Assembly: GCA_040080605.1 (NCBI GenBank)
Contig: JBEBIB010000002.1
Location: 123,124-187,123, forward strand
Source: Burkholderiaceae bacterium
Lineage (GTDB): Bacteria > Pseudomonadota > Gammaproteobacteria > Burkholderiales > Burkholderiaceae_C
Length of the DNA: 64,000 nt
Reading direction: 5' to 3'
A program made the translations under genes and the position numbers. Below the pieces are notes generated by a model. The model was not told where the DNA came from, ran no database searches, and saw only the letters and a list, made by a program, of their open reading frames with translations. Numbering within the stretch: the stretch's first letter is position 1; each line of letters begins with the position of its first letter. Shown here one piece after another: positions 32,179 to 39,452 of the stretch.

Positions 32179-32811
32179 TCAGGCGAGCAGATCCGACACG
32201 TCGAGGATGCGTTGAGCCACGTCGGCCACCTTCAGGCCCTTGTCCATCGCCGTCTTGCGCAGCCGCGCGTAGGCGTCTTCTTCGCTCAGGCCGTTGCGTG
32301 TCATCAGGATGCCCTTGGCGCGGTCTATGGTCTTGCGCTCGGAGAGCTGGCTGCGAGCGTCGGCCAGCTCGCGGCGCATGCATTCTTCGTGCTGGAAACG
32401 CGCCAGGGCCACGTCGAGCACCGGGCGCACCCGTTCGGGCGCCATGCCGGCGACGACGTAGGCCGTGACGCCCGCCGCGATGGCGTCGCGCACGTGGCTG
32501 GTGTCGTTGTCTTCGGTGAACAGCACGATCGGGCGGCGCGCGTCACGCGTGGCCATCACCACGTGCTCCAGCGTGTCGCGGGCCTGGCTTTCGGCGTCGA
32601 CGATGATCATGTCGGGGCTGATCTGCGCCAGCCGCTCGGGCAGGAACACGTCGGCGGGCAACACGGCCACGATGTTGTAGCCGTCCTGCAGCAAGCCGAT
32701 GCGCAGGATGCGCGAGCGCTCCGCCTCGATCCGGGCCTCCGGGTCCGAGGGGTCGGGCCACAGCGAGTCGGGGGCGATGATGACGAGGCGCAGGTCTTGG
32801 ACCGAAGACAT
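32179..32811 (-). CDS. nasT: ANTAR-domain antiterminator (NasT family)
   Basis: Pseudo-receiver (PDMIIVD..S..RDTLE) plus ANTAR (LSERKTIDRAKGILM...EEDAYARLRKTAM). Confidence 0.9.
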   Translation of the reverse strand: MSSVQDLRLVIIAPDSLWPDPSDPEARIEAERSRILRIGLLQDGYNIVAVLPADVFLPERLAQISPDMIIVDAESQARDTLEHVVMATRDARRPIVLFTEDNDTSHVRDAIAAGVTAYVVAGMAPERVRPVLDVALARFQHEECMRRELADARSQLSERKTIDRAKGILMTRNGLSEEDAYARLRKTAMDKGLKVADVAQRILDVSDLLA

Positions 32812-32823
32812 GCGGGGAGAGGG

Positions 32824-32839
32824 AGCAACATTCACGCCA
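32824..32839 (-). promoter_or_regulatory. Putative sigma54 promoter of nasT
   Basis: Minus strand TGGCGT-GAATG-TTGCT, 12 nt before ATG 32811. Confidence 0.55.
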
Positions 32840-32919
32840 AGCCCGGGCCATGGCACGGGCGGGCAGCGAAGCTCAGCGGGTCTGGGGCAGTCGGGCCTGG
32901 CGGCGCGCCTGAGCCGGGC

Positions 32920-33207
32920 TCAGCGCCGGTCGGTGTGGCTCGAGATCGCGCGGCGCAGCCAGCCACCGAGCGGGCGCAAGGAACCGAACAACGAGTCGGG
33001 GACGAGCGAGTCACGCTTGGAGATCATGCCGCGGGCGTCGAGCATCTCGATGAACTGGCGCACTTCCTGGCGGCGAATGCCGCTCACGCCCACCAGTTGC
33101 GTCAACGACATGTGCCGGTGCGACATGTTGCTCAGCATGCGGCGAAACGCAGTGCGGTCAAACGGAGCATTGAGCTCCGGCCAAGCGGCGAGGCGGTATT
33201 CCTTCAT
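32920..33207 (-). CDS. Hypothetical 95-aa protein, possible winged-HTH
   Basis: GGAG RBS; segment MSLTQLVGVSGIRRQEVRQFIEMLDARGMI has HTH-like amphipathic pattern. Confidence 0.65.
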   Translation of the reverse strand: MKEYRLAAWPELNAPFDRTAFRRMLSNMSHRHMSLTQLVGVSGIRRQEVRQFIEMLDARGMISKRDSLVPDSLFGSLRPLGGWLRRAISSHTDRR

Positions 33208-33363
33208 GGCTCCAACGATGTGTTTTTCGGCGGTGGGTCAAGCCAGCCGCTCATCAGCAACTTGCAGGGTAGGCGCTTGCGCTGCTCGCGTGAAGGGGTG
33301 AAAACCGCGGTTTCGTGATTTCCGACACGGACGGAATCAACGATACAAGCTGATTCATTCAGC

Positions 33364-33735
33364 TCAGGAAGGTTTGCTCAACGCACGCTGAACCTCGCTC
33401 TGCCACGGCAGCGCATGCACCAACTGGTGCAGGTGAACAGTGACCTGCACGTGGCTCAAGGCTTCGCCATGGGCATCGAGCAGGCGAAGGTTGGTGACCA
33501 TGCCGAACGGGTCGGCCATGGCGACCACGCCCTGCTGCAGTTCGACCCAGTCCCACGCCACGCCGGCCGAGCGGTCTTCGCTCGCGTCGCCCCACAGGGT
33601 CTGGCCGCTGCACGGCCCGGCCTCGTCGCCAAAAGTCAACACGCGCGTGCCGAGGTGGACAAGATGCAGATGCGAGGCCGAGCTCGCCTGCCACAATACA
33701 GGCGGCCACGCGTACACAATCCATGCAGGTGTCAT
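33364..33735 (-). CDS. RsaM-like (DUF4902-type) quorum-sensing modulator candidate
   Basis: SGQTLW...AGVAWDW...MVTNLRLLDAHG resembles the RsaM-family G-Y-T-E-W...GWDW...SN..L.D pattern as recalled; divergent from luxR; start uncertain. Confidence 0.6.
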   Translation of the reverse strand: MTPAWIVYAWPPVLWQASSASHLHLVHLGTRVLTFGDEAGPCSGQTLWGDASEDRSAGVAWDWVELQQGVVAMADPFGMVTNLRLLDAHGEALSHVQVTVHLHQLVHALPWQSEVQRALSKPS

Positions 33736-33822
33736 TCGGGTGGTCAACGTCGTCGCGCCGATGATGTGTCCTCGGTGGGTGAATCGATAAGCGTTAGTGT
33801 GGCAACGGAATTTGCTTTTGCC

Positions 33823-33842
33823 ATCTGTCAACCCTGTCAGGT
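33823..33842 (-). promoter_or_regulatory. lux-box-like element 2 (between RsaM-like gene and luxR)
   Basis: Minus strand ACCTGACAGGGTTGACAGAT; CTG-N10-CAG core; 14/20 identical to element at 34654. Confidence 0.55.
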
Positions 33843-33902
33843 TCGTGTCTTGCAGGTGTGCTGGCATGTGAAGGATTGCGCGTTGGGGTGAGAAGGGGCG
33901 GC

Positions 33903-34616
33903 ATGCTTCAGGGTGGGTTCACGGAAGTGCTGGGGAGTCAAAGCCGGGACGAGTTCCGGGATGAGGTCGTGGGCTTCACGAAGAGGCTCGGCTTCGCGAC
34001 CGTCTCGGCCACCGTCGTCATCGACCACCTGCTCGGCGAGGCCGAGTTCATCACCGTCGACAACACGCCGCAGGCCTACCGCGACGCTTTCCAGAACCGC
34101 GACAACTGGCGCCTCGATCCGGTCATGCAGCACTGCAAGCGCCAGAGCATGCCCATCATCTGGAGCCAGAAGACCTACGTGGCACAGGGCTTGGGCGACA
34201 AGTGGGAAGAGCAGGCCCGCTACGGTTATCGCAACGGCATCGCGCTGGCGCTGCACATGCCCGAAGGCCGGCATTTCTTCCTCGGTGTCGACCGCGACCA
34301 GCCGGTGCCGATGCACGCCGGCGAGCTGACGCGCGTGGTCGCCGACCTGCAGCTCTTCGCCGTGCACGCCCAGGACGCCGCCTTGCGCATCCTTGCGCCC
34401 GGTGGCTCCGAGCCGGGCAACCCGTCGCTCACGCCGCGCGAGCTCGAAACCCTGCGCTGGACGATGGAAGGGCGCACCGCGCGCGAAGTCGGCGAAGTGC
34501 TGGGCATCACCGAGCGTACGGCCGCGCTGCACGTCAACAACGCGACCCACAAGCTGGGCTGCGTCAACAAGCACCAGGCGGTGCTCAAGGCCCTGCGCCT
34601 CGGCTTGATTCGCTGA
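33903..34616 (+). CDS. LuxR-family regulator with autoinducer-binding domain (LuxR solo)
   Basis: N-terminal Autoind_bind pattern (DNTP..Y...F........DPVMQHC....PIIW...G) and C-terminal LTPRELETLRW..EG....EVGEVLGITERTAALHVNNATHKLG. Confidence 0.92.
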   Translation: MLQGGFTEVLGSQSRDEFRDEVVGFTKRLGFATVSATVVIDHLLGEAEFITVDNTPQAYRDAFQNRDNWRLDPVMQHCKRQSMPIIWSQKTYVAQGLGDKWEEQARYGYRNGIALALHMPEGRHFFLGVDRDQPVPMHAGELTRVVADLQLFAVHAQDAALRILAPGGSEPGNPSLTPRELETLRWTMEGRTAREVGEVLGITERTAALHVNNATHKLGCVNKHQAVLKALRLGLIR

Positions 34617-34653
34617 GAATTCCCGGAAAGACCGGGTGTCGCGTCAACCCCCA

Positions 34654-34673
34654 CCCTGTAAGACTTGACAGTT
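34654..34673 (+). promoter_or_regulatory. lux/cep-box-like operator upstream of peptide gene
   Basis: CCCTGTAAGACTTGACAGTT; CTG-N10-CAG core; 13/20 to V. fischeri lux box ACCTGTAGGATCGTACAGGT. Confidence 0.7.
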
Positions 34674-34746
34674 ACGCAAAAGCTCCACTCCTGTTTGAAT
34701 GGCCGCAGTGCACGGATGGCGTGTACCCCACCTTCAGGAGCAGAGC

Positions 34747-34938
34747 ATGCAACAACGTCAAATCACCGCCTCCCAATTCGCCACCCAGTCCGTTGCCGGC
34801 TCGCAGGCATCGACCAAGAGCGCCCCGATCGCACTCGACGCGGCCACGCTGAAGCTGGTCGCCGGTGGCGTGCAGACGGCCGGCCCGAACGGTGGCTGGT
34901 CCAGCGCCGGTGTCGAAGGCCCGAACGGCGGCTGGTAA
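34747..34938 (+). CDS. Double-glycine-leader peptide precursor (63 aa) with repeated GPNGGW core
   Basis: AGGAG RBS 6 nt before ATG; leader end LDAATLKLVAGG (hydrophobic at -12/-7/-4); core VQTAGPNGGWSSAGVEGPNGGW; directly upstream of HlyD and C39 ABC exporter. Confidence 0.85.
   Translation: MQQRQITASQFATQSVAGSQASTKSAPIALDAATLKLVAGGVQTAGPNGGWSSAGVEGPNGGW
34882..34935 (+). repeat. 18-bp direct repeat (17/18 identical, 36-nt period) encoding GPNGGW twice
   Basis: GGCCCGAACGGTGGCTGG (34882-34899) and GGCCCGAACGGCGGCTGG (34918-34935). Confidence 0.95.
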
Positions 34939-34953
34939 GGCAGCCCGGGTTTC

Positions 34954-36213
34954 GTGGCCAGCCTGTTCCGCCCCGAAGCCCTGGAAAACCGCCAGCGCGA
35001 CTGGCTGGGCAGCATTCAGCTGATCCGGCCGATTTCACTTGGCGTATTGACCCTTTTTGTGGTCGCGACCGCCGTGGCCGTCGCTTCCTATTTGGTGCTC
35101 GGCGAATACACCCGCAAGGCCCGTGTCAGCGGCTATCTCGTTCCCGACCAGGGTGTGATCCGCCTGATGTCGCCCCAGGCGGCAACGCTGGTGGAGTCGC
35201 ACGCCGTCGAAGGTGCGTCGGTGCGCCGCGGCGACGTGCTGTTCGTCCTGTCGGTCGGCCAGTCCACGCTCAGCGGCGACACACAGGCCGCCGTCAAATC
35301 GAGCCTGGCGCTGCGCGAGCAGAGCCTGCAAGGGGCGGCTCGCCAGCGCGGTGCGCTCGAGCAGACCCAGCTCGGCGCGCTCGACCGCCAGATCGAAGAC
35401 ATGCGGCGCGAGCTCGGCTCCATGGCCGCCGAGGCCGATCTGCAACGCGAGCGGCTCACGCTGGCCCAGCAAGCCCAGGCGCGGCTGGAATCATTGCGCA
35501 ACGACAACTTCGTGTCGTCGGCGCAGGTGCAGACGAAAGCCGAGGAAGTTCTCGGTCTGAAAGCGCAGATGCAGGCGCTGGAGCGCCAACGCTCGGCACA
35601 CTTGCGCGAAATCACCGCGCTGCAGGCGCAACGCCGCGAGTTGCCGATGCGCGTGCAGGCGCAACAAGGCGAGATCGACCGCGATCTGGCGGCGCTGGCC
35701 CAGCAGGCCGCCGAAAACGAGGCCCGCCAGCGCATCGTGGTGCGCGCGCCGCAAGACGGTGTGCTCACCGGCGTGCTCGCCCAGGTCGGCCAGACTGTCA
35801 CGCCGACGGTTGCGATGGCCAGCTTACTTCCCGCCAACGCACGCCTGCAGGCGCAGCTCTTCGCACCGTCGAGCGCGGTCGGCTTCGTCCGCCCGAACCA
35901 GCCGGTGCAGTTGCGCTACCAGGCTTTCCCGTACCAGAAGTTCGGCCACCAGACCGGTGCGGTGGCGCTGGTGTCGCGTTCACCGCTGCAGGCCACCGAG
36001 CTCGCAGGCTTGCCGATGCAGGCCGCTGCGAACGCGGCGAGCGAACCGCTGTACCGCATCACCGTCACGCTCGACCAGCAAAGCGTGGCTGCGTACGGCC
36101 AGGCCCAGGCGCTGGTGCCCGGCATGCAGCTCGAAGCCGATGTGCTGCTCGACCGGCGCCGCCTGATCGAGTGGCTGTTCGAGCCGGTGCTCGGCATCGC
36201 CGGTCGGGTGTAG
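34954..36213 (+). CDS. HlyD-family membrane fusion protein (CvaA/MchE-like)
   Basis: SLFRPEAL N-terminus, one TM, EYTRKARVSGYLVP, coiled coil, VRAPQDG, YQAFPYQKFG, PGMQLEADV; GTG start. Confidence 0.93.
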   Translation: MASLFRPEALENRQRDWLGSIQLIRPISLGVLTLFVVATAVAVASYLVLGEYTRKARVSGYLVPDQGVIRLMSPQAATLVESHAVEGASVRRGDVLFVLSVGQSTLSGDTQAAVKSSLALREQSLQGAARQRGALEQTQLGALDRQIEDMRRELGSMAAEADLQRERLTLAQQAQARLESLRNDNFVSSAQVQTKAEEVLGLKAQMQALERQRSAHLREITALQAQRRELPMRVQAQQGEIDRDLAALAQQAAENEARQRIVVRAPQDGVLTGVLAQVGQTVTPTVAMASLLPANARLQAQLFAPSSAVGFVRPNQPVQLRYQAFPYQKFGHQTGAVALVSRSPLQATELAGLPMQAAANAASEPLYRITVTLDQQSVAAYGQAQALVPGMQLEADVLLDRRRLIEWLFEPVLGIAGRV

Positions 36214-36217
36214 GCGC

Positions 36218-38365
36218 TTGGCTTCCGTGCTCGACGGTCTGCGCTTGGGTCTGACGGGCCGGCGGCTGCCGATGATCTTGCAGACCGAGGCCGCCGAGTG
36301 CGGCCTGGCCTGCCTGGCGATGGTGGCCTCGCACCACGGCTTTCGCAGTGACCTGCCGACATTGCGCCAGCGCTTTTCGGTCTCGCTCAAAGGCGCGACC
36401 ATGGCCGACCTGGTGCGCCTGGCCGGTCACATGCGGCTGAACGCACGCGCGCTGCGGGCCGAGATGGAGCACCTGCCCGAACTGGCGCTGCCTTGCATCC
36501 TGCACTGGGACCTGAACCACTTCGTCGTGCTGAAGGAAGTCCGCCGCGGCGTCGCCGTGATCCACGACCCGGCGCGCGGCGTGCGCAGCCTGCCGCGGGC
36601 CGAGCTGTCGAAACACTTCACCGGCATCGTGCTCGAGCTGGCGCCGCAGGCCGAGTTCGAACCGCAGACCGCGCGCCAGAACGTCTCGTTGCGCCAGTTG
36701 CTCGGCCGCGTGACCGGCCTGAAGCGCTCGCTGCTGCAGATCTTCACGCTGGCGGTGGCGCTCGAAGCGTTCACGCTGCTGTCGCCGTTTTTCCTGCAGT
36801 GGGTCGTCGACAGCGTGCTGCTCAGCGCCGACCGCGACCTGCTCATCACGCTCGGGGTCGGCTTCGCCTTGCTGGTGCTGATCCAGGTCGGCGCCAGCGC
36901 GATCCGCTCGTGGGCCGTGTTGCACCTGTCGGCCACGCTGAACCTGCAGTGGCTCTCGAACGTGTTCGCGCACCTGATGCGCTTGCCGGTCTCGTGGTTC
37001 GAGAAGCGCCACACCGGCGACGTGATGTCGCGCTTCGGCGCGGTGCAGAAGATCCAGCAGACGCTGACCACGAGTTTCGTCGAGTCGGTGCTAGACGGCG
37101 TGCTCGTCGTCGTCACGCTGGCAATGATGTTCATCTACAGCGGCACGCTGACGGCCATCGCCTGCGCCAGCGTCGCGGCTTATGCGCTGTTGCGCTGGGC
37201 CTTTTTCAGGCCGCTGCGCGAAGCGACCGAAGAGTCGATCATCTTCGAGGCCAAACGCTCCAGCCATTTCCTCGAATCGCTGCGCGGCGTGCAGTCGATC
37301 AAGCTCTTCAACCGCCAGGAAGACCGCCAAGCGCGTTTCATGAACCTCGTGGTCGACGCGATGAACGCCAACATCGCCACGCGCAAGCTCGACCTGATGT
37401 TCAGCGTCTTGCACAAGCTGGTGTTCGGGCTGGAGCGCATCGCGATTGTCTGGGTCGGCGCCTTGCTGGTGATGGACCACATCTTCTCGGTCGGCATGCT
37501 GTTCGCGTTCATCGCCTACAAGGAACAGTTCGCGCAACGTGTGAGTGCGCTGATCGACAAGGTGGTCGAGCTCAAGATGCTCAAGCTGCAGGGCGAGCGT
37601 CTGGCCGACATCGTGCTCACGCCGCCCGAACCGCAGGCCGAGTTGGCGCCGCCGCTTCCGGCAGGGCGCGTGAGCCTGGAACTGCGCAATGTGAGCTTCG
37701 GTTATTCCGAGGCCGAGCCCGAGGTGCTGCGGCACCTGAACCTCGTCATCGAACCGGGCGAGTCGGTGGCCATCGTCGGCCCGTCGGGTTGTGGCAAGAC
37801 GACGCTGCTCAAGCTGATGCTGGGCGTGCACACGCCTCAGACCGGCGAGATTCGCGTCGGTGGCCTGGCCTTGCGCCAGCTCGGCCTGCGTGCCTGGCGC
37901 GACATGATCGGCACCGTGATGCAGGACGACCAGCTCTTCGCCGGCTCGATCGCCGACAACATCAGCTTCTTCGACCCCGAGGCCGACCCGGCGTGGATCA
38001 CGCAGTGCGCGCGCATCGCCGCCGTGGCCGACGAGATCGGCGCGATGCCGATGGGCTTTCACACGCTGATCGGCGACATGGGTGCCAGCATTTCCGGCGG
38101 CCAGAAGCAGCGCATCCTGCTGGCGCGGGCGCTTTACAAAAGGCCGAAGCTGCTGTTCCTCGACGAAGCGACCAGCGCGCTCGACGTCGAGCGGGAACGC
38201 GAAGTGAACCAGGCCATTCGCCAGCTCGACCTCACGCGCATCATCGTCGCGCACCGGCCCGAGACCATCGCGTCGGCAAACCGCGTGATCGTGCTGCAGG
38301 ACGGCAAGATTTCGCAGGACCTGCGCAGCGTGCCCGGCGGCGGGGGCAGCACGCACGCCCGCTGA
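36218..38365 (+). CDS. Peptidase-containing ABC transporter (C39 + TM + ATPase; CvaB/MchF-like)
   Basis: [16 protein letters not shown] (catalytic Cys), [11 protein letters not shown] (His), IHDP (Asp), [25 protein letters not shown]; TTG start. Confidence 0.95.
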
Positions 38366-38405
38366 AGCACCGGGGCAGGGCGCACGCGGCCCTAAACTCC
38401 CGTGC

Positions 38406-39452
38406 ATGAACATCCTCGGCATCGAATCGTCGTGCGACGAAACCGGCGTGGCGCTGGTGCGTGCCGCCGCGAGCGGCACGCCGACACTGCTGGCCCACGC
38501 GCTGCACAGCCAGATCGACATGCACCAGGCTTATGGCGGCGTGGTGCCCGAATTGGCTTCGCGCGACCACATCCGGCGCGTGCTGCCACTCGCCCGGCAG
38601 GTCATGCAGGAGGCTGGTGCAACGCTGGCCGACATCGATGTCGTGGCCTACACGCGCGGCCCGGGGCTGGCCGGTGCCCTGCTGGTCGGTGCGGGCGTGG
38701 CGTGTTCGCTGGCCGCGGCACTCGGCCGGCCCGTCGTCGGTGTGCACCACCTCGAAGGCCACCTGCTGTCGCCGTTTCTCTCGGCCGACCCACCCGAGTT
38801 CCCGTTCATCGCGCTGCTGGTGTCGGGCGGCCACACGCAGTTGATGCGGGTCGACGACGTGGGCCACTACGAACTGCTCGGTGAGACCATCGACGACGCG
38901 GCCGGCGAGGCCTTCGACAAATCGGCCAAGCTGCTGGGCCTCGGCTACCCGGGCGGGCCGGCGCTGGCGCGCTTGGCTGCATTCGGCGATGCGTCGAGCT
39001 TCACATTGCCACGCCCCTTGCTGCACAGCGGCAACCTCGATTTTTCGTTCGCGGGCCTGAAGACGGCGGTTCGCACGCAGGTGCTCAAGCTCGGAAGCAA
39101 TGTGTGCGAGCAGGACAAGGCGAACCTGGCGGCGGCCACGCAACAAGCCATCGTCGACGTGCTGGTGCGCAAGTCGATCCAGGCGCTGCGCGACACCGGC
39201 CTGAAACGCATCGTCGTCGCAGGCGGTGTCGGGGCGAATGCGCTGCTGCGCGAACAACTGAACCGCGAATGCACGAAGCGCCAGATCAGGGTGCACTACC
39301 CCGAGCTGGCGCTGTGCACCGACAACGGCGCGATGATCGCGCTCGCCGCGGCGATGCGTCTGCAACGCGAGAGCACGGCAGCGTCGAACGACTACGCCTT
39401 CAACGTGCTGCCACGCTGGCCGCTGGCGACTGCGAACGCCGCGGTCAGTTGA
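38406..39452 (+). CDS. tsaD: tRNA N6-threonylcarbamoyladenosine transferase
   Basis: [55 protein letters not shown]. Confidence 0.97.

What the first reader, a model, noticed from the sequence alone, without database searches (positions are those of the whole stretch)
33823..34673. Two related lux/cep-box-like operators flanking luxR
Seen: CCCTGTAAGACTTGACAGTT (34654-34673, 73 nt before the peptide ATG) and, on the minus strand, ACCTGACAGGGTTGACAGAT (33823-33842, facing the RsaM-like gene). Both have the CTG-N10-CAG core, share 14/20 nt, and contain TTGACAG. Box1 matches the V. fischeri lux box at 13/20 and, from memory (verify), the Burkholderia cepI box CCCTGTAAGAGTTACCAGTT at 17/20. Inference: LuxR activates both the peptide/export operon (positive loop) and the RsaM-like brake (negative loop).
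Basis: partly seen in the sequence, partly recalled or inferred. Interest (0 to 1): 0.68.

Follow-up and report, generated by a model that had tools for sequence, protein, structure and literature searches.

The report
Two LuxR operators wiring a peptide circuit
Two conserved 20-bp lux/cep-type binding sites flank a lone LuxR-type regulator gene; one most likely switches on an exported-peptide operon sitting where related bacteria keep their signal-synthase gene, and the other an RsaM-like brake gene, but no binding or expression experiment has been done.

Summary

The boxes are far beyond chance:
- In 81 orthologous loci (LuxR 67-100% identical), box1 is kept in 80 and box2 in 79. Each is an island of about 2 bits per position in flanks of about 0.1 bit.
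- Each box lies at an invariant, gap-free distance from a conserved -10 element. This is TGnTnnAAT toward the peptide gene and CACACT toward the RsaM-like gene. The box centre therefore falls near -43, the usual LuxR activator position.
- In the window's own 5.25-Mb genome they are the two top motif hits, at 34.6 and 31.6 bits; the next scores 20.
- That genome has a single autoinducer-binding-domain protein, the adjacent LuxR, and no LuxI.

Most likely reading: LuxR activates both the peptide/HlyD/C39-ABC operon and the RsaM-like gene. This matches the two-box circuit described for abaI/abaM in Acinetobacter, with a peptide operon in the synthase slot.

The direction of regulation, the ligand and the loop signs are inferred. 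The scan had already flagged the peptide, LuxR and RsaM-like genes of this locus in this same window.

The parts
34654..34673 (+). Box1: cep/lux-type operator of the peptide-operon promoter. With its flanking CA and AC it forms a 24-mer at 34652-34675.
   Evidence: Read. It matches the window's box at >=15/20 in 80 of 81 orthologous loci, always on the + strand. Information content is about 2 bits per position against about 0.1 in the flanks. It is the best PWM hit in the genome at 34.6 bits. It matches the footprinted cepI box at 17/20.
34692..34700 (+). Extended -10 element (TGtTTGAAT) of the box1 promoter. The predicted transcription start is near 34706-34708, so the box centre lies at about -43.
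   Evidence: In the ungapped box-anchored alignment of 80 loci, T at +38 occurs in 77, G at +39 in 80, T at +41 in 79, A at +44 in 79, A at +45 in 79 and T at +46 in 80. The transcription start itself is inferred, not mapped.
34747..34938 (+). 63-aa precursor with a double-glycine leader (LKLVAGG) and two GPNGGW units. It is the first gene downstream of box1.
   Evidence: In 64 loci a GG-leader peptide ending in P-x-x-x-W starts 49-81 nt (median 74.5) after box1.
34954..36213 (+). HlyD-family membrane fusion protein, the second gene of the presumed operon.
   Evidence: Pfam HlyD_3, E 1.8e-10. It is conserved downstream in most loci.
36218..38365 (+). ABC exporter with an N-terminal C39 peptidase domain (PCAT), the third gene of the presumed operon.
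   Evidence: Pfam Peptidase_C39 E 8.9e-37, ABC_membrane E 6.9e-40, ABC_tran E 2.7e-31.
33903..34616 (+). luxR: the only autoinducer-binding-domain regulator in the genome and the presumed binder of both boxes.
   Evidence: Pfam Autoind_bind E 9.8e-24 and GerE E 1.3e-12. It is the only PF03472 hit in the genome. The DNA-binding domain is much more conserved than the ligand domain (entropy 0.43 against about 0.95 bits).
33823..33842 (-). Box2: operator of the RsaM-like gene promoter, oriented toward the minus-strand gene. It lies 60 nt upstream of the luxR ATG on the other strand.
   Evidence: Read. It matches at >=14/20 in 79 of 81 loci, always in the minus orientation. It is the second-best PWM hit in the genome at 31.6 bits.
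33796..33801 (-). -10-like hexamer CACACT of the box2 promoter, with the same 21-nt gap from the box as at box1. The predicted transcription start is near 33789.
   Evidence: In the ungapped alignment of 78 loci, A at +42 occurs in 74, A at +44 in 72 and T at +46 in 70.
33364..33735 (-). RsaM-like gene (123 aa, starts MTPAWIV).
   Evidence: Pfam DUF4902 E 1.2e-3 for the window protein. All 14 orthologs scanned hit DUF4902, best E 3.3e-6. A profile of the orthologs hits only PDB 4O2H (BCAM1869, which a review read names BcRsaM of B. cenocepacia J2315) at E 0.0027. The ATG lies 61-92 nt after box2 in most loci.
32920..33207 (-). 95-aa ORF downstream of the RsaM-like gene, possibly co-transcribed from the box2 promoter.
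   Evidence: No Pfam hit. tblastn finds it in roughly half of the orthologous loci and not in the more distant ones.

Best explanation
The two 20-bp imperfect inverted repeats are binding sites for a dimer of the adjacent LuxR-family protein. Each sits just upstream of, and probably overlapping, the weak -35 region of an activator-dependent sigma-70 promoter, with the box centre about 43 nt before the predicted start.

Liganded LuxR bound at box1 recruits RNA polymerase to transcribe the GG-leader peptide precursor together with its HlyD and C39-ABC exporter. LuxR bound at box2 transcribes the divergent RsaM-like gene, and perhaps the 95-aa ORF behind it.

The circuit has the shape of RsaM-containing AHL loci, in which one box drives the signal-production gene and one drives the modulator. 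Here the synthase slot is occupied by a ribosomal peptide and its exporter.

Shown here: sequence, conservation, geometry, genome-wide uniqueness, and co-occurrence with the LuxR. Inferred: binding, activation rather than repression, the ligand, and the signs of the loops.
For: 1. Phylogenetic footprint. In 81 loci from Rhizobacter, Methylibium, Piscinibacter, Rubrivivax and Ideonella genomes (LuxR 67-100% identical), box1 is kept in 80 and box2 in 79, although the distance from the luxR stop to box1 varies from 1 to 149 nt. Information content is about 2 bits inside the boxes and about 0.1 bit in the flanks.

2. Fixed geometry. A conserved extended -10 (TGnTnnAAT) lies at +38 to +46 from the start of box1. 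A CACACT hexamer lies at +41 to +46 from the start of box2. No indel occurs in 78-80 loci.

3. TTGACA inside the box is 23 nt from the -10, too far to serve as a -35. The consensus scan finds no stand-alone sigma-70 promoter in 32800-38600.

4. Uniqueness. In the genome PWM scan the boxes score 34.6 and 31.6 bits and the next site scores 20.0.

5. Co-occurrence. Across 35 genomes of the genus, the pattern typically occurs as one pair about 830-870 bp apart flanking luxR. It has no hit in G002, G009 and G014, which lack the ortholog. The reversed-pattern control gives about 0.2 hits per genome.

6. Only one Autoind_bind protein is encoded in the genome, and its DNA-binding domain is highly conserved.

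7. Box1 matches the DNase-footprinted and mutagenised CepR site at 17/20, with the same distance to the ORF (72 against 73 nt).

8. Precedents. In A. baumannii, predicted lux boxes precede both abaI and abaM, and abaM is QS-activated (PMC8088503). In a genome of the same genus (G043), a similar box sits between luxI and a strong DUF4902 gene.
Against: The -10 toward the RsaM-like gene (CACACT) is weak.

Box2 is also only 60 nt from the luxR ATG, so it could act on luxR as well or instead.

The ligand pocket of this LuxR is non-canonical, so whether and when it binds DNA is unknown.

The RsaM-like assignment rests on weak scores: below Pfam's cut-off for the window protein, and PDB E 0.0027.
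Confidence: 0.85

Rival explanations
1. Box2 is mainly an autoregulatory site for luxR, repressing or activating it, rather than the activator site of the RsaM-like gene.
For: Box2 ends 60 nt upstream of the luxR ATG, and this distance is roughly conserved at -62 to -107. CepR negatively autoregulates cepR in Burkholderia (PMC12838280).
Against: The box is asymmetric, and its TTGACAG half always points to the RsaM-like gene. A conserved -10-like hexamer lies on that side at exactly the spacing seen at box1. On the luxR side nothing is conserved except the ribosome-binding site. The two roles are not mutually exclusive.
Confidence: 0.12
2. LuxR acts at these boxes as a repressor that is released by its ligand (EsaR-type logic), not as an activator.
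For: Some LuxR homologs work this way, and the ligand and its effect are unknown here.
Against: The box lies upstream of the -10 with its centre near -43, overlapping a poor -35. From general knowledge, this is the position used by activating LuxR, CepR, TraR and LasR, and repressing sites usually overlap the -10 or the start. No good -35 is present to support activator-independent transcription.
Confidence: 0.07
3. The boxes are bound by a different protein, for example the 95-aa ORF, the RsaM-like protein or an unrelated regulator. Alternatively they are only conserved promoter elements containing a TTGACA -35.
Against: TTGACA lies 23 nt from the conserved -10, and the distal half-site CCTGTAAGA is conserved equally well. 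The 95-aa ORF is missing from about half the loci that keep both boxes. No DNA-binding motif has been identified in RsaM (PMC12838280). The site is 17/20 identical to a proven CepR site.
Confidence: 0.04

Closest known systems
cep box of the Burkholderia cenocepacia cepI promoter (CepR site; PMC1766932)
   Same: Box1 matches the cep box at 17/20 (21/24 with flanks). Both have the CTG-N10-CAG arms. The distance to the downstream ORF is the same (72 against 73 nt). Both are linked to a LuxR-family gene and an RsaM-family gene.
   Different: The downstream gene is not an AHL synthase. It is a GG-leader peptide precursor followed by HlyD and a C39-ABC exporter. Gene order also differs: here rsaM-like and luxR are divergent, and the peptide operon follows luxR.
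abaR-abaM-abaI locus of Acinetobacter baumannii, with predicted lux boxes before abaI and abaM forming an incoherent feed-forward loop (PMC8088503)
   Same: There are two related lux-type boxes in one locus. One lies before the signal-production gene and one about 70-90 nt before the RsaM-family gene. In A. baumannii the RsaM-family gene is positively regulated by QS.
   Different: That system makes and senses an AHL. Here the genome has no LuxI, and the receptor has Tyr and Phe at the W57 and Y61 positions. The function of the RsaM-like protein here is untested.
lux box of the Vibrio fischeri luxI promoter
   Same: Both are 20-bp inverted repeats with CTG/CAG arms. By general knowledge the lux box is centred at -42.5 of a promoter without a good -35; here the predicted centre is about -43.
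   Different: Identity is only 13/20. The V. fischeri box is a single site between luxR and luxI, whereas here two separate, directionally asymmetric boxes serve two promoters.
luxI - box - rsaM locus in a genome of the same genus (G043, locus L103)
   Same: A similar box (CCTGTCAACTTTGACAG) sits next to a DUF4902 gene (E 3.9e-25), 50 nt before its ATG.
   Different: That box is a near-perfect palindrome shared by divergent luxI and rsaM genes. An AHL synthase is present there (PF00765, E 1.4e-22).

Membership tests
lux/cep-box type LuxR operator | An approximately 20-bp imperfect inverted repeat with CTG-N10-CAG arms. | tested here: met
   Both boxes carry it. The arms are invariant or nearly so in 78-80 loci.
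lux/cep-box type LuxR operator | Sequence similarity to an experimentally defined LuxR-family site. | tested here: met
   17/20 to the footprinted and mutagenised cepI box (PMC1766932). 13/20 to the V. fischeri lux box.
lux/cep-box type LuxR operator | Centred near -42.5, overlapping the -35 of an activator-dependent promoter. | tested here: inconclusive
   A conserved -10 lies at a fixed 21-nt gap, which puts the centre at about -43 if transcription starts 6-7 nt after the -10. No consensus promoter is found.
lux/cep-box type LuxR operator | Genetic linkage and co-occurrence with a LuxR-family regulator. | tested here: met
   The box pair flanks luxR in the genus and is missing from G002, G009 and G014, which lack the ortholog. 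The genome has a single Autoind_bind protein.
lux/cep-box type LuxR operator | Specific binding by the cognate LuxR protein. | not testable with these tools
   This needs EMSA, footprinting or ChIP.
RsaM-containing AHL quorum-sensing locus (luxI-rsaM-luxR) | An RsaM-fold (DUF4902) protein encoded next to luxR. | tested here: met
   All 14 orthologs scanned hit DUF4902, best E 3.3e-6, but the window protein scores 19.2 bits against a cut-off of 25. The profile's sole PDB hit is 4O2H at E 0.0027. This is remote homology.
RsaM-containing AHL quorum-sensing locus (luxI-rsaM-luxR) | A LuxI-type AHL synthase in the locus or genome. | tested here: not met
   There is no PF00765 match in the genome, which is 100% complete by marker genes. 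The same search finds LuxI in 6 of 35 genus genomes, 3 of them strongly, so it works. Other synthase types (HdtS, LuxM) were not searched.
Canonical AHL-binding LuxR receptor | Six conserved pocket residues: W57, Y61, D70, P71, W85 and G113 (TraR numbering; PMC10134790). | tested here: not met
   Alignments to RhlR, QscR and LasR give Tyr at the W57 position and Phe at the Y61 position. LasR Y56 and S129 correspond to Thr and Gly here. The D, P, W and G positions are kept. Across 81 orthologs the W57 position is Y in 63, F in 14 and W in 3.
Double-glycine peptide / PCAT export system | A precursor with a GG-type leader, an ABC transporter with a C39 peptidase domain, and an accessory HlyD protein. 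| tested here: met
   The LKLVAGG leader is read in the sequence. Peptidase_C39 E 8.9e-37 and HlyD_3 E 1.8e-10. Cleavage and export were not tested.

The most novel reading that the evidence does not exclude
The operator pair marks a LuxR/RsaM circuit in which the AHL synthase has been replaced by a ribosomal GG-leader peptide and its exporter. On this reading, the short P-x-x-x-W peptides released from the precursor are the autoinducer read by the LuxR-type receptor, and box1 closes a true autoinduction loop. This would be peptide quorum sensing through a LuxR-family receptor in Gram-negative bacteria.

Observations that fit:
- There is no LuxI in this genome or in most relatives.
- The AHL head-group contacts in the pocket are altered.
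- The box-to-ATG spacing equals that of cepI.
- A hypervariable receptor helix (residues 57-69) parallels the hypervariable peptide.
- Trp at receptor position 69 is seen only with peptides ending in Gly-Trp.

The evidence does not exclude this reading, and it does not demonstrate it.
Probability: 0.4. Interest if true: 0.9.

Novelty: new variant of a known kind. Interest (0 to 1): 0.6.

Why it matters
Lux-type boxes are textbook elements, and a box before both a signal gene and an rsaM-type gene has been described in Acinetobacter. What is new is what this conserved, cepI-like box drives. It is not an AHL synthase but a hypervariable double-glycine peptide precursor with its exporter. This occurs in a clade of at least 81 genomes, and most genus genomes checked lack LuxI.

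The boxes give the regulatory link between the LuxR solo and the peptide. They also provide ready reporter promoters (34640-34746 and 33736-33860) for testing whether the peptide, an AHL or something else is the ligand.

The regulon in this genome appears to be self-contained, consisting of two promoters.

Tried and rejected
- **Bare core motif.** CTG-N10-CAG is not enriched in the window (18 found, 24 expected). A loose 17-mer with two mismatches is not enriched either. On core pattern alone the observation would be chance; conservation is what carries it.
- **Third site in this genome.** The third PWM hit (C51:96604, 20 bits) lies about 270 nt upstream of an argG paralog. Its intergenic DNA is not conserved in any of 34 genus genomes, so I do not count it as regulon.
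- **luxR promoter.** I looked for a conserved luxR promoter between box2 and the luxR ATG. None was found beyond the ribosome-binding site.
- **Coevolution test.** I tested LuxR position 69 against the penultimate peptide residue. The raw table is striking (Trp69 in 16 of 30 Gly-Trp loci and 0 of 34 others). Phylogenetically independent pairs are too few: 6 pairs, 1-2 informative, p about 0.5.
- **RsaM structure paper.** Michalska et al. 2014 was not held in the library.
- **Prior descriptions.** Literature searches for a LuxR coupled to a GG peptide found none in the held library. Subscription journals are not covered.

Full report
**Observation**

One search shows CCCTGTAAGACTTGACAGTT at 34654-34673 on the + strand. 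The reverse complement of 33823-33842 reads ACCTGACAGGGTTGACAGAT. The two 20-mers share 14 positions. Both have CTG-N10-CAG arms and the heptamer TTGACAG.

The peptide ATG is at 34747, 73 nt after box1.
- The V. fischeri lux box string occurs in the literature and matches box1 at 13/20.
- The cepI box is given in Table 2 of PMC1766932. It matches at 17/20, or 21/24 with the flanking CA and AC.
- The cepI box lies 72 bp from its ORF, against 73 here.

The bare core motif is not enriched in the window, so significance has to come from elsewhere.

**Gene context**

Searches give the following layout:

| Gene | Coordinates | Strand | Evidence |
|---|---|---|---|
| RsaM-like (123 aa) | 33735-33364 | - | weak DUF4902 hit |
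| 95-aa ORF | 33207-32920 | - | no family hit |
| luxR | 33903-34616 | + | Autoind_bind plus GerE |
| 63-aa precursor | 34747-34938 | + | LKLVAGG leader, two GPNGGW units |
| HlyD-family protein | 34954-36213 | + | HlyD_3 |
| C39-peptidase ABC exporter | 36218-38365 | + | Peptidase_C39, ABC domains |

The block lies between a nasT-like ANTAR regulator and tsaD.

The RsaM-like call is a remote homology:
- All 14 orthologs tested hit DUF4902, best E 3.3e-6.
- A profile of them finds only one PDB chain, 4O2H (BCAM1869), at E 0.0027. A review read names that protein BcRsaM of B. cenocepacia J2315.

**Conservation**

I collected 19 orthologous loci from the genus. A further 80 came from named public genomes of Rhizobacter, Methylibium, Piscinibacter, Rubrivivax, Ideonella and Caldimonas, with LuxR identity from 97% down to 67%.

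- Box1 matches the window's box at >=15/20 in 80 of 81 loci. The exception is a contig end.
- Box2 matches at >=14/20 in 79 of 81 loci.
- 400 shuffled regions never exceeded 14/20.
- The distance from the luxR stop to box1 ranges from 1 to 149 nt, so the box is conserved independently of its surroundings.
- In ungapped, box-anchored alignments the information content is 1.4-2.0 bits at 16 of 20 positions of box1 (0.8-1.1 at the other four), and about 0.1 bit in the flanks.

**Promoter geometry**

The same alignments reveal a second conserved island at a fixed offset.

Downstream of box1 the pattern is T(+38) G(+39) n T(+41) n n A(+44) A(+45) T(+46), present in 77-80 of 80 loci. This is an extended -10. 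In the window it is TGtTTGAAT at 34692-34700.

Downstream of box2, toward the RsaM-like gene, CACACT occupies +41 to +46. A, A and T at hexamer positions 2, 4 and 6 occur in 70-74 of 78 loci. In the window it lies at 33801-33796 on the minus strand.

The gap between box and -10 is therefore identical at both promoters and free of indels across the family. If transcription starts 6-7 nt after the -10, the box centre is at about -43. This matches the -42.5 position of activating lux-type boxes (general knowledge).

TTGACA inside the box is 23 nt from the -10, so it is not the -35. The consensus scan finds no stand-alone sigma-70 promoter in the region. This fits activator dependence.

The boxes are directionally asymmetric. 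The TTGACAG half is always promoter-proximal, which assigns box2 to the RsaM-like gene rather than to luxR. No conserved element other than a ribosome-binding site lies between box2 and the luxR ATG.

Start codons follow at conserved distances:
- The peptide ATG lies 49-81 nt after box1, median 74.5, in 64 loci.
- The RsaM-like ATG lies 61-92 nt after box2 in most loci.

**Who binds**

- A position weight matrix built from all box instances, scanned over the 5.25-Mb genome, returns the two boxes at 34.6 and 31.6 bits. The next site scores 20.0.
- Across 35 genomes of the genus, a degenerate pattern typically occurs as one pair about 830-870 bp apart on opposite strands flanking luxR. The reversed-pattern control gives about 0.2 hits per genome.
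- G002, G009 and G014, which lack the ortholog, have no hit.
- G001 seemed to lack LuxR but has box2 and the RsaM-like gene at a contig end.
- The genome encodes exactly one Autoind_bind domain, the adjacent LuxR. The E. coli control rang, so the search works.
- The LuxR DNA-binding domain is far more conserved than its ligand domain (mean column entropy 0.43 against about 0.95 bits). This parallels the conservation of the boxes.
- The 95-aa ORF is missing from about half of the loci that keep both boxes, so it is not the required binder.

**Comparison with known systems**

The architecture matches RsaM-containing AHL loci. In A. baumannii, predicted lux boxes precede both abaI and abaM. The abaM box lies 68 bp before its start codon. 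abaM is activated by QS, giving an incoherent feed-forward loop (PMC8088503).

In one genome of the same genus (G043), a similar box lies between a true luxI (PF00765, E 1.4e-22) and a strong DUF4902 gene (E 3.9e-25).

The difference here is the occupant of the synthase slot:
- There is no LuxI in this genome, which is 100% complete by marker genes.
- The same search finds LuxI in only 6 of 35 genus genomes.
- The gene behind the cepI-like box is a GG-leader peptide.
- The receptor has Tyr and Phe at the W57 and Y61 positions, and Thr and Gly at the positions of LasR Y56 and S129.
- It therefore fails the canonical AHL-receptor residue test listed in PMC10134790.

**What is shown and what is inferred**

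Shown computationally: the boxes are real, strongly selected, unique in the genome, tied to this LuxR, and positioned as activator sites for two promoters.

Inferred: physical binding, activation rather than repression, co-transcription of the three downstream genes, and the signs of the two loops.

'Positive loop' holds only if the peptide is the ligand, and the support for that is suggestive only:
- The peptide core is hypervariable between species. It keeps one to five P-x-x-x-W units and in nearly all loci ends in Trp.
- Receptor residues 57-69 are hypervariable.
- Trp at position 69 occurs in 16 of 30 loci whose peptide ends Gly-Trp and in 0 of 34 others.
- The phylogenetically independent-pairs test has too few informative pairs (p about 0.5).

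**Limits**

- Most loci are from metagenome-assembled genomes.
- The literature searches cover open-access papers and bioRxiv only. Within that library I found no description of this wiring.
- Earlier notes of this scan had already flagged the peptide, the LuxR pocket and the RsaM-like gene in this same window. I used them as leads and re-tested the parts I rely on.

Noticed in passing
window 34747-34938; loci L021-L100 downstream of box1: The precursor family is hypervariable. It has a GG or GA leader end followed by one to five copies of a P-x-x-x-W unit (PNGGW, PHGGW, PRGGW, PKGTW, PNGTW, PAGNW and others), almost always ending in Trp. No modifying enzyme or immunity gene is nearby.
   Followed up: partly
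window 33903-34616 (LuxR residues 57-69): The helix that lines the AHL pocket in canonical receptors is the most variable part of this LuxR (column entropy up to 3.2 bits), while the DNA-binding domain is nearly invariant. Trp at residue 69 occurs only where the peptide ends Gly-Trp (16 of 30 against 0 of 34). The independent-pairs test is not significant.
   Followed up: partly
own genome C51:96604-96623 (locus L105:2001-2020): This is the third-best box-like site in the genome (ACCTGTCACCTCTTACAGAT, 20 bits). It sits in a lower-GC 435-nt spacer about 270 nt upstream of a second argG copy. The spacer is not conserved in any of 34 genus genomes.
   Followed up: yes
L117:328-347 (G005:C39) and L121 minus strand (G020:C354): In two relatives a box1-like site, with the same -10 spacing (TCGAAT or TCAAAT at +41 to +46), precedes a gene for a signal-peptide protein. 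That protein has no Pfam hit and starts ...IYSEQ.KLIRA...LGADLFGDKVN. In G045 (L120) a similar site precedes a gene whose N-terminus looks, by eye, like a TonB-dependent receptor; I ran no family search on it. The regulon may be larger in other species.
   Followed up: partly
L103 (G043:C11:33142-36675): A genome of the same genus carries a canonical AHL locus. A luxI gene and a strong DUF4902/RsaM gene diverge from a near-perfect palindromic box, CCTGTCAACTTTGACAG.
   Followed up: partly
window 32920-33207 (-): The 95-aa ORF behind the RsaM-like gene has no Pfam hit. It is conserved (51-93% identity) in roughly half of the orthologous loci, mainly the closer ones.
   Followed up: no
window 34617-34653: A short hairpin (CCCGG-aaaga-CCGGG) lies between the luxR stop and box1, without a T tract. 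The terminator scan did not call it.
   Followed up: no
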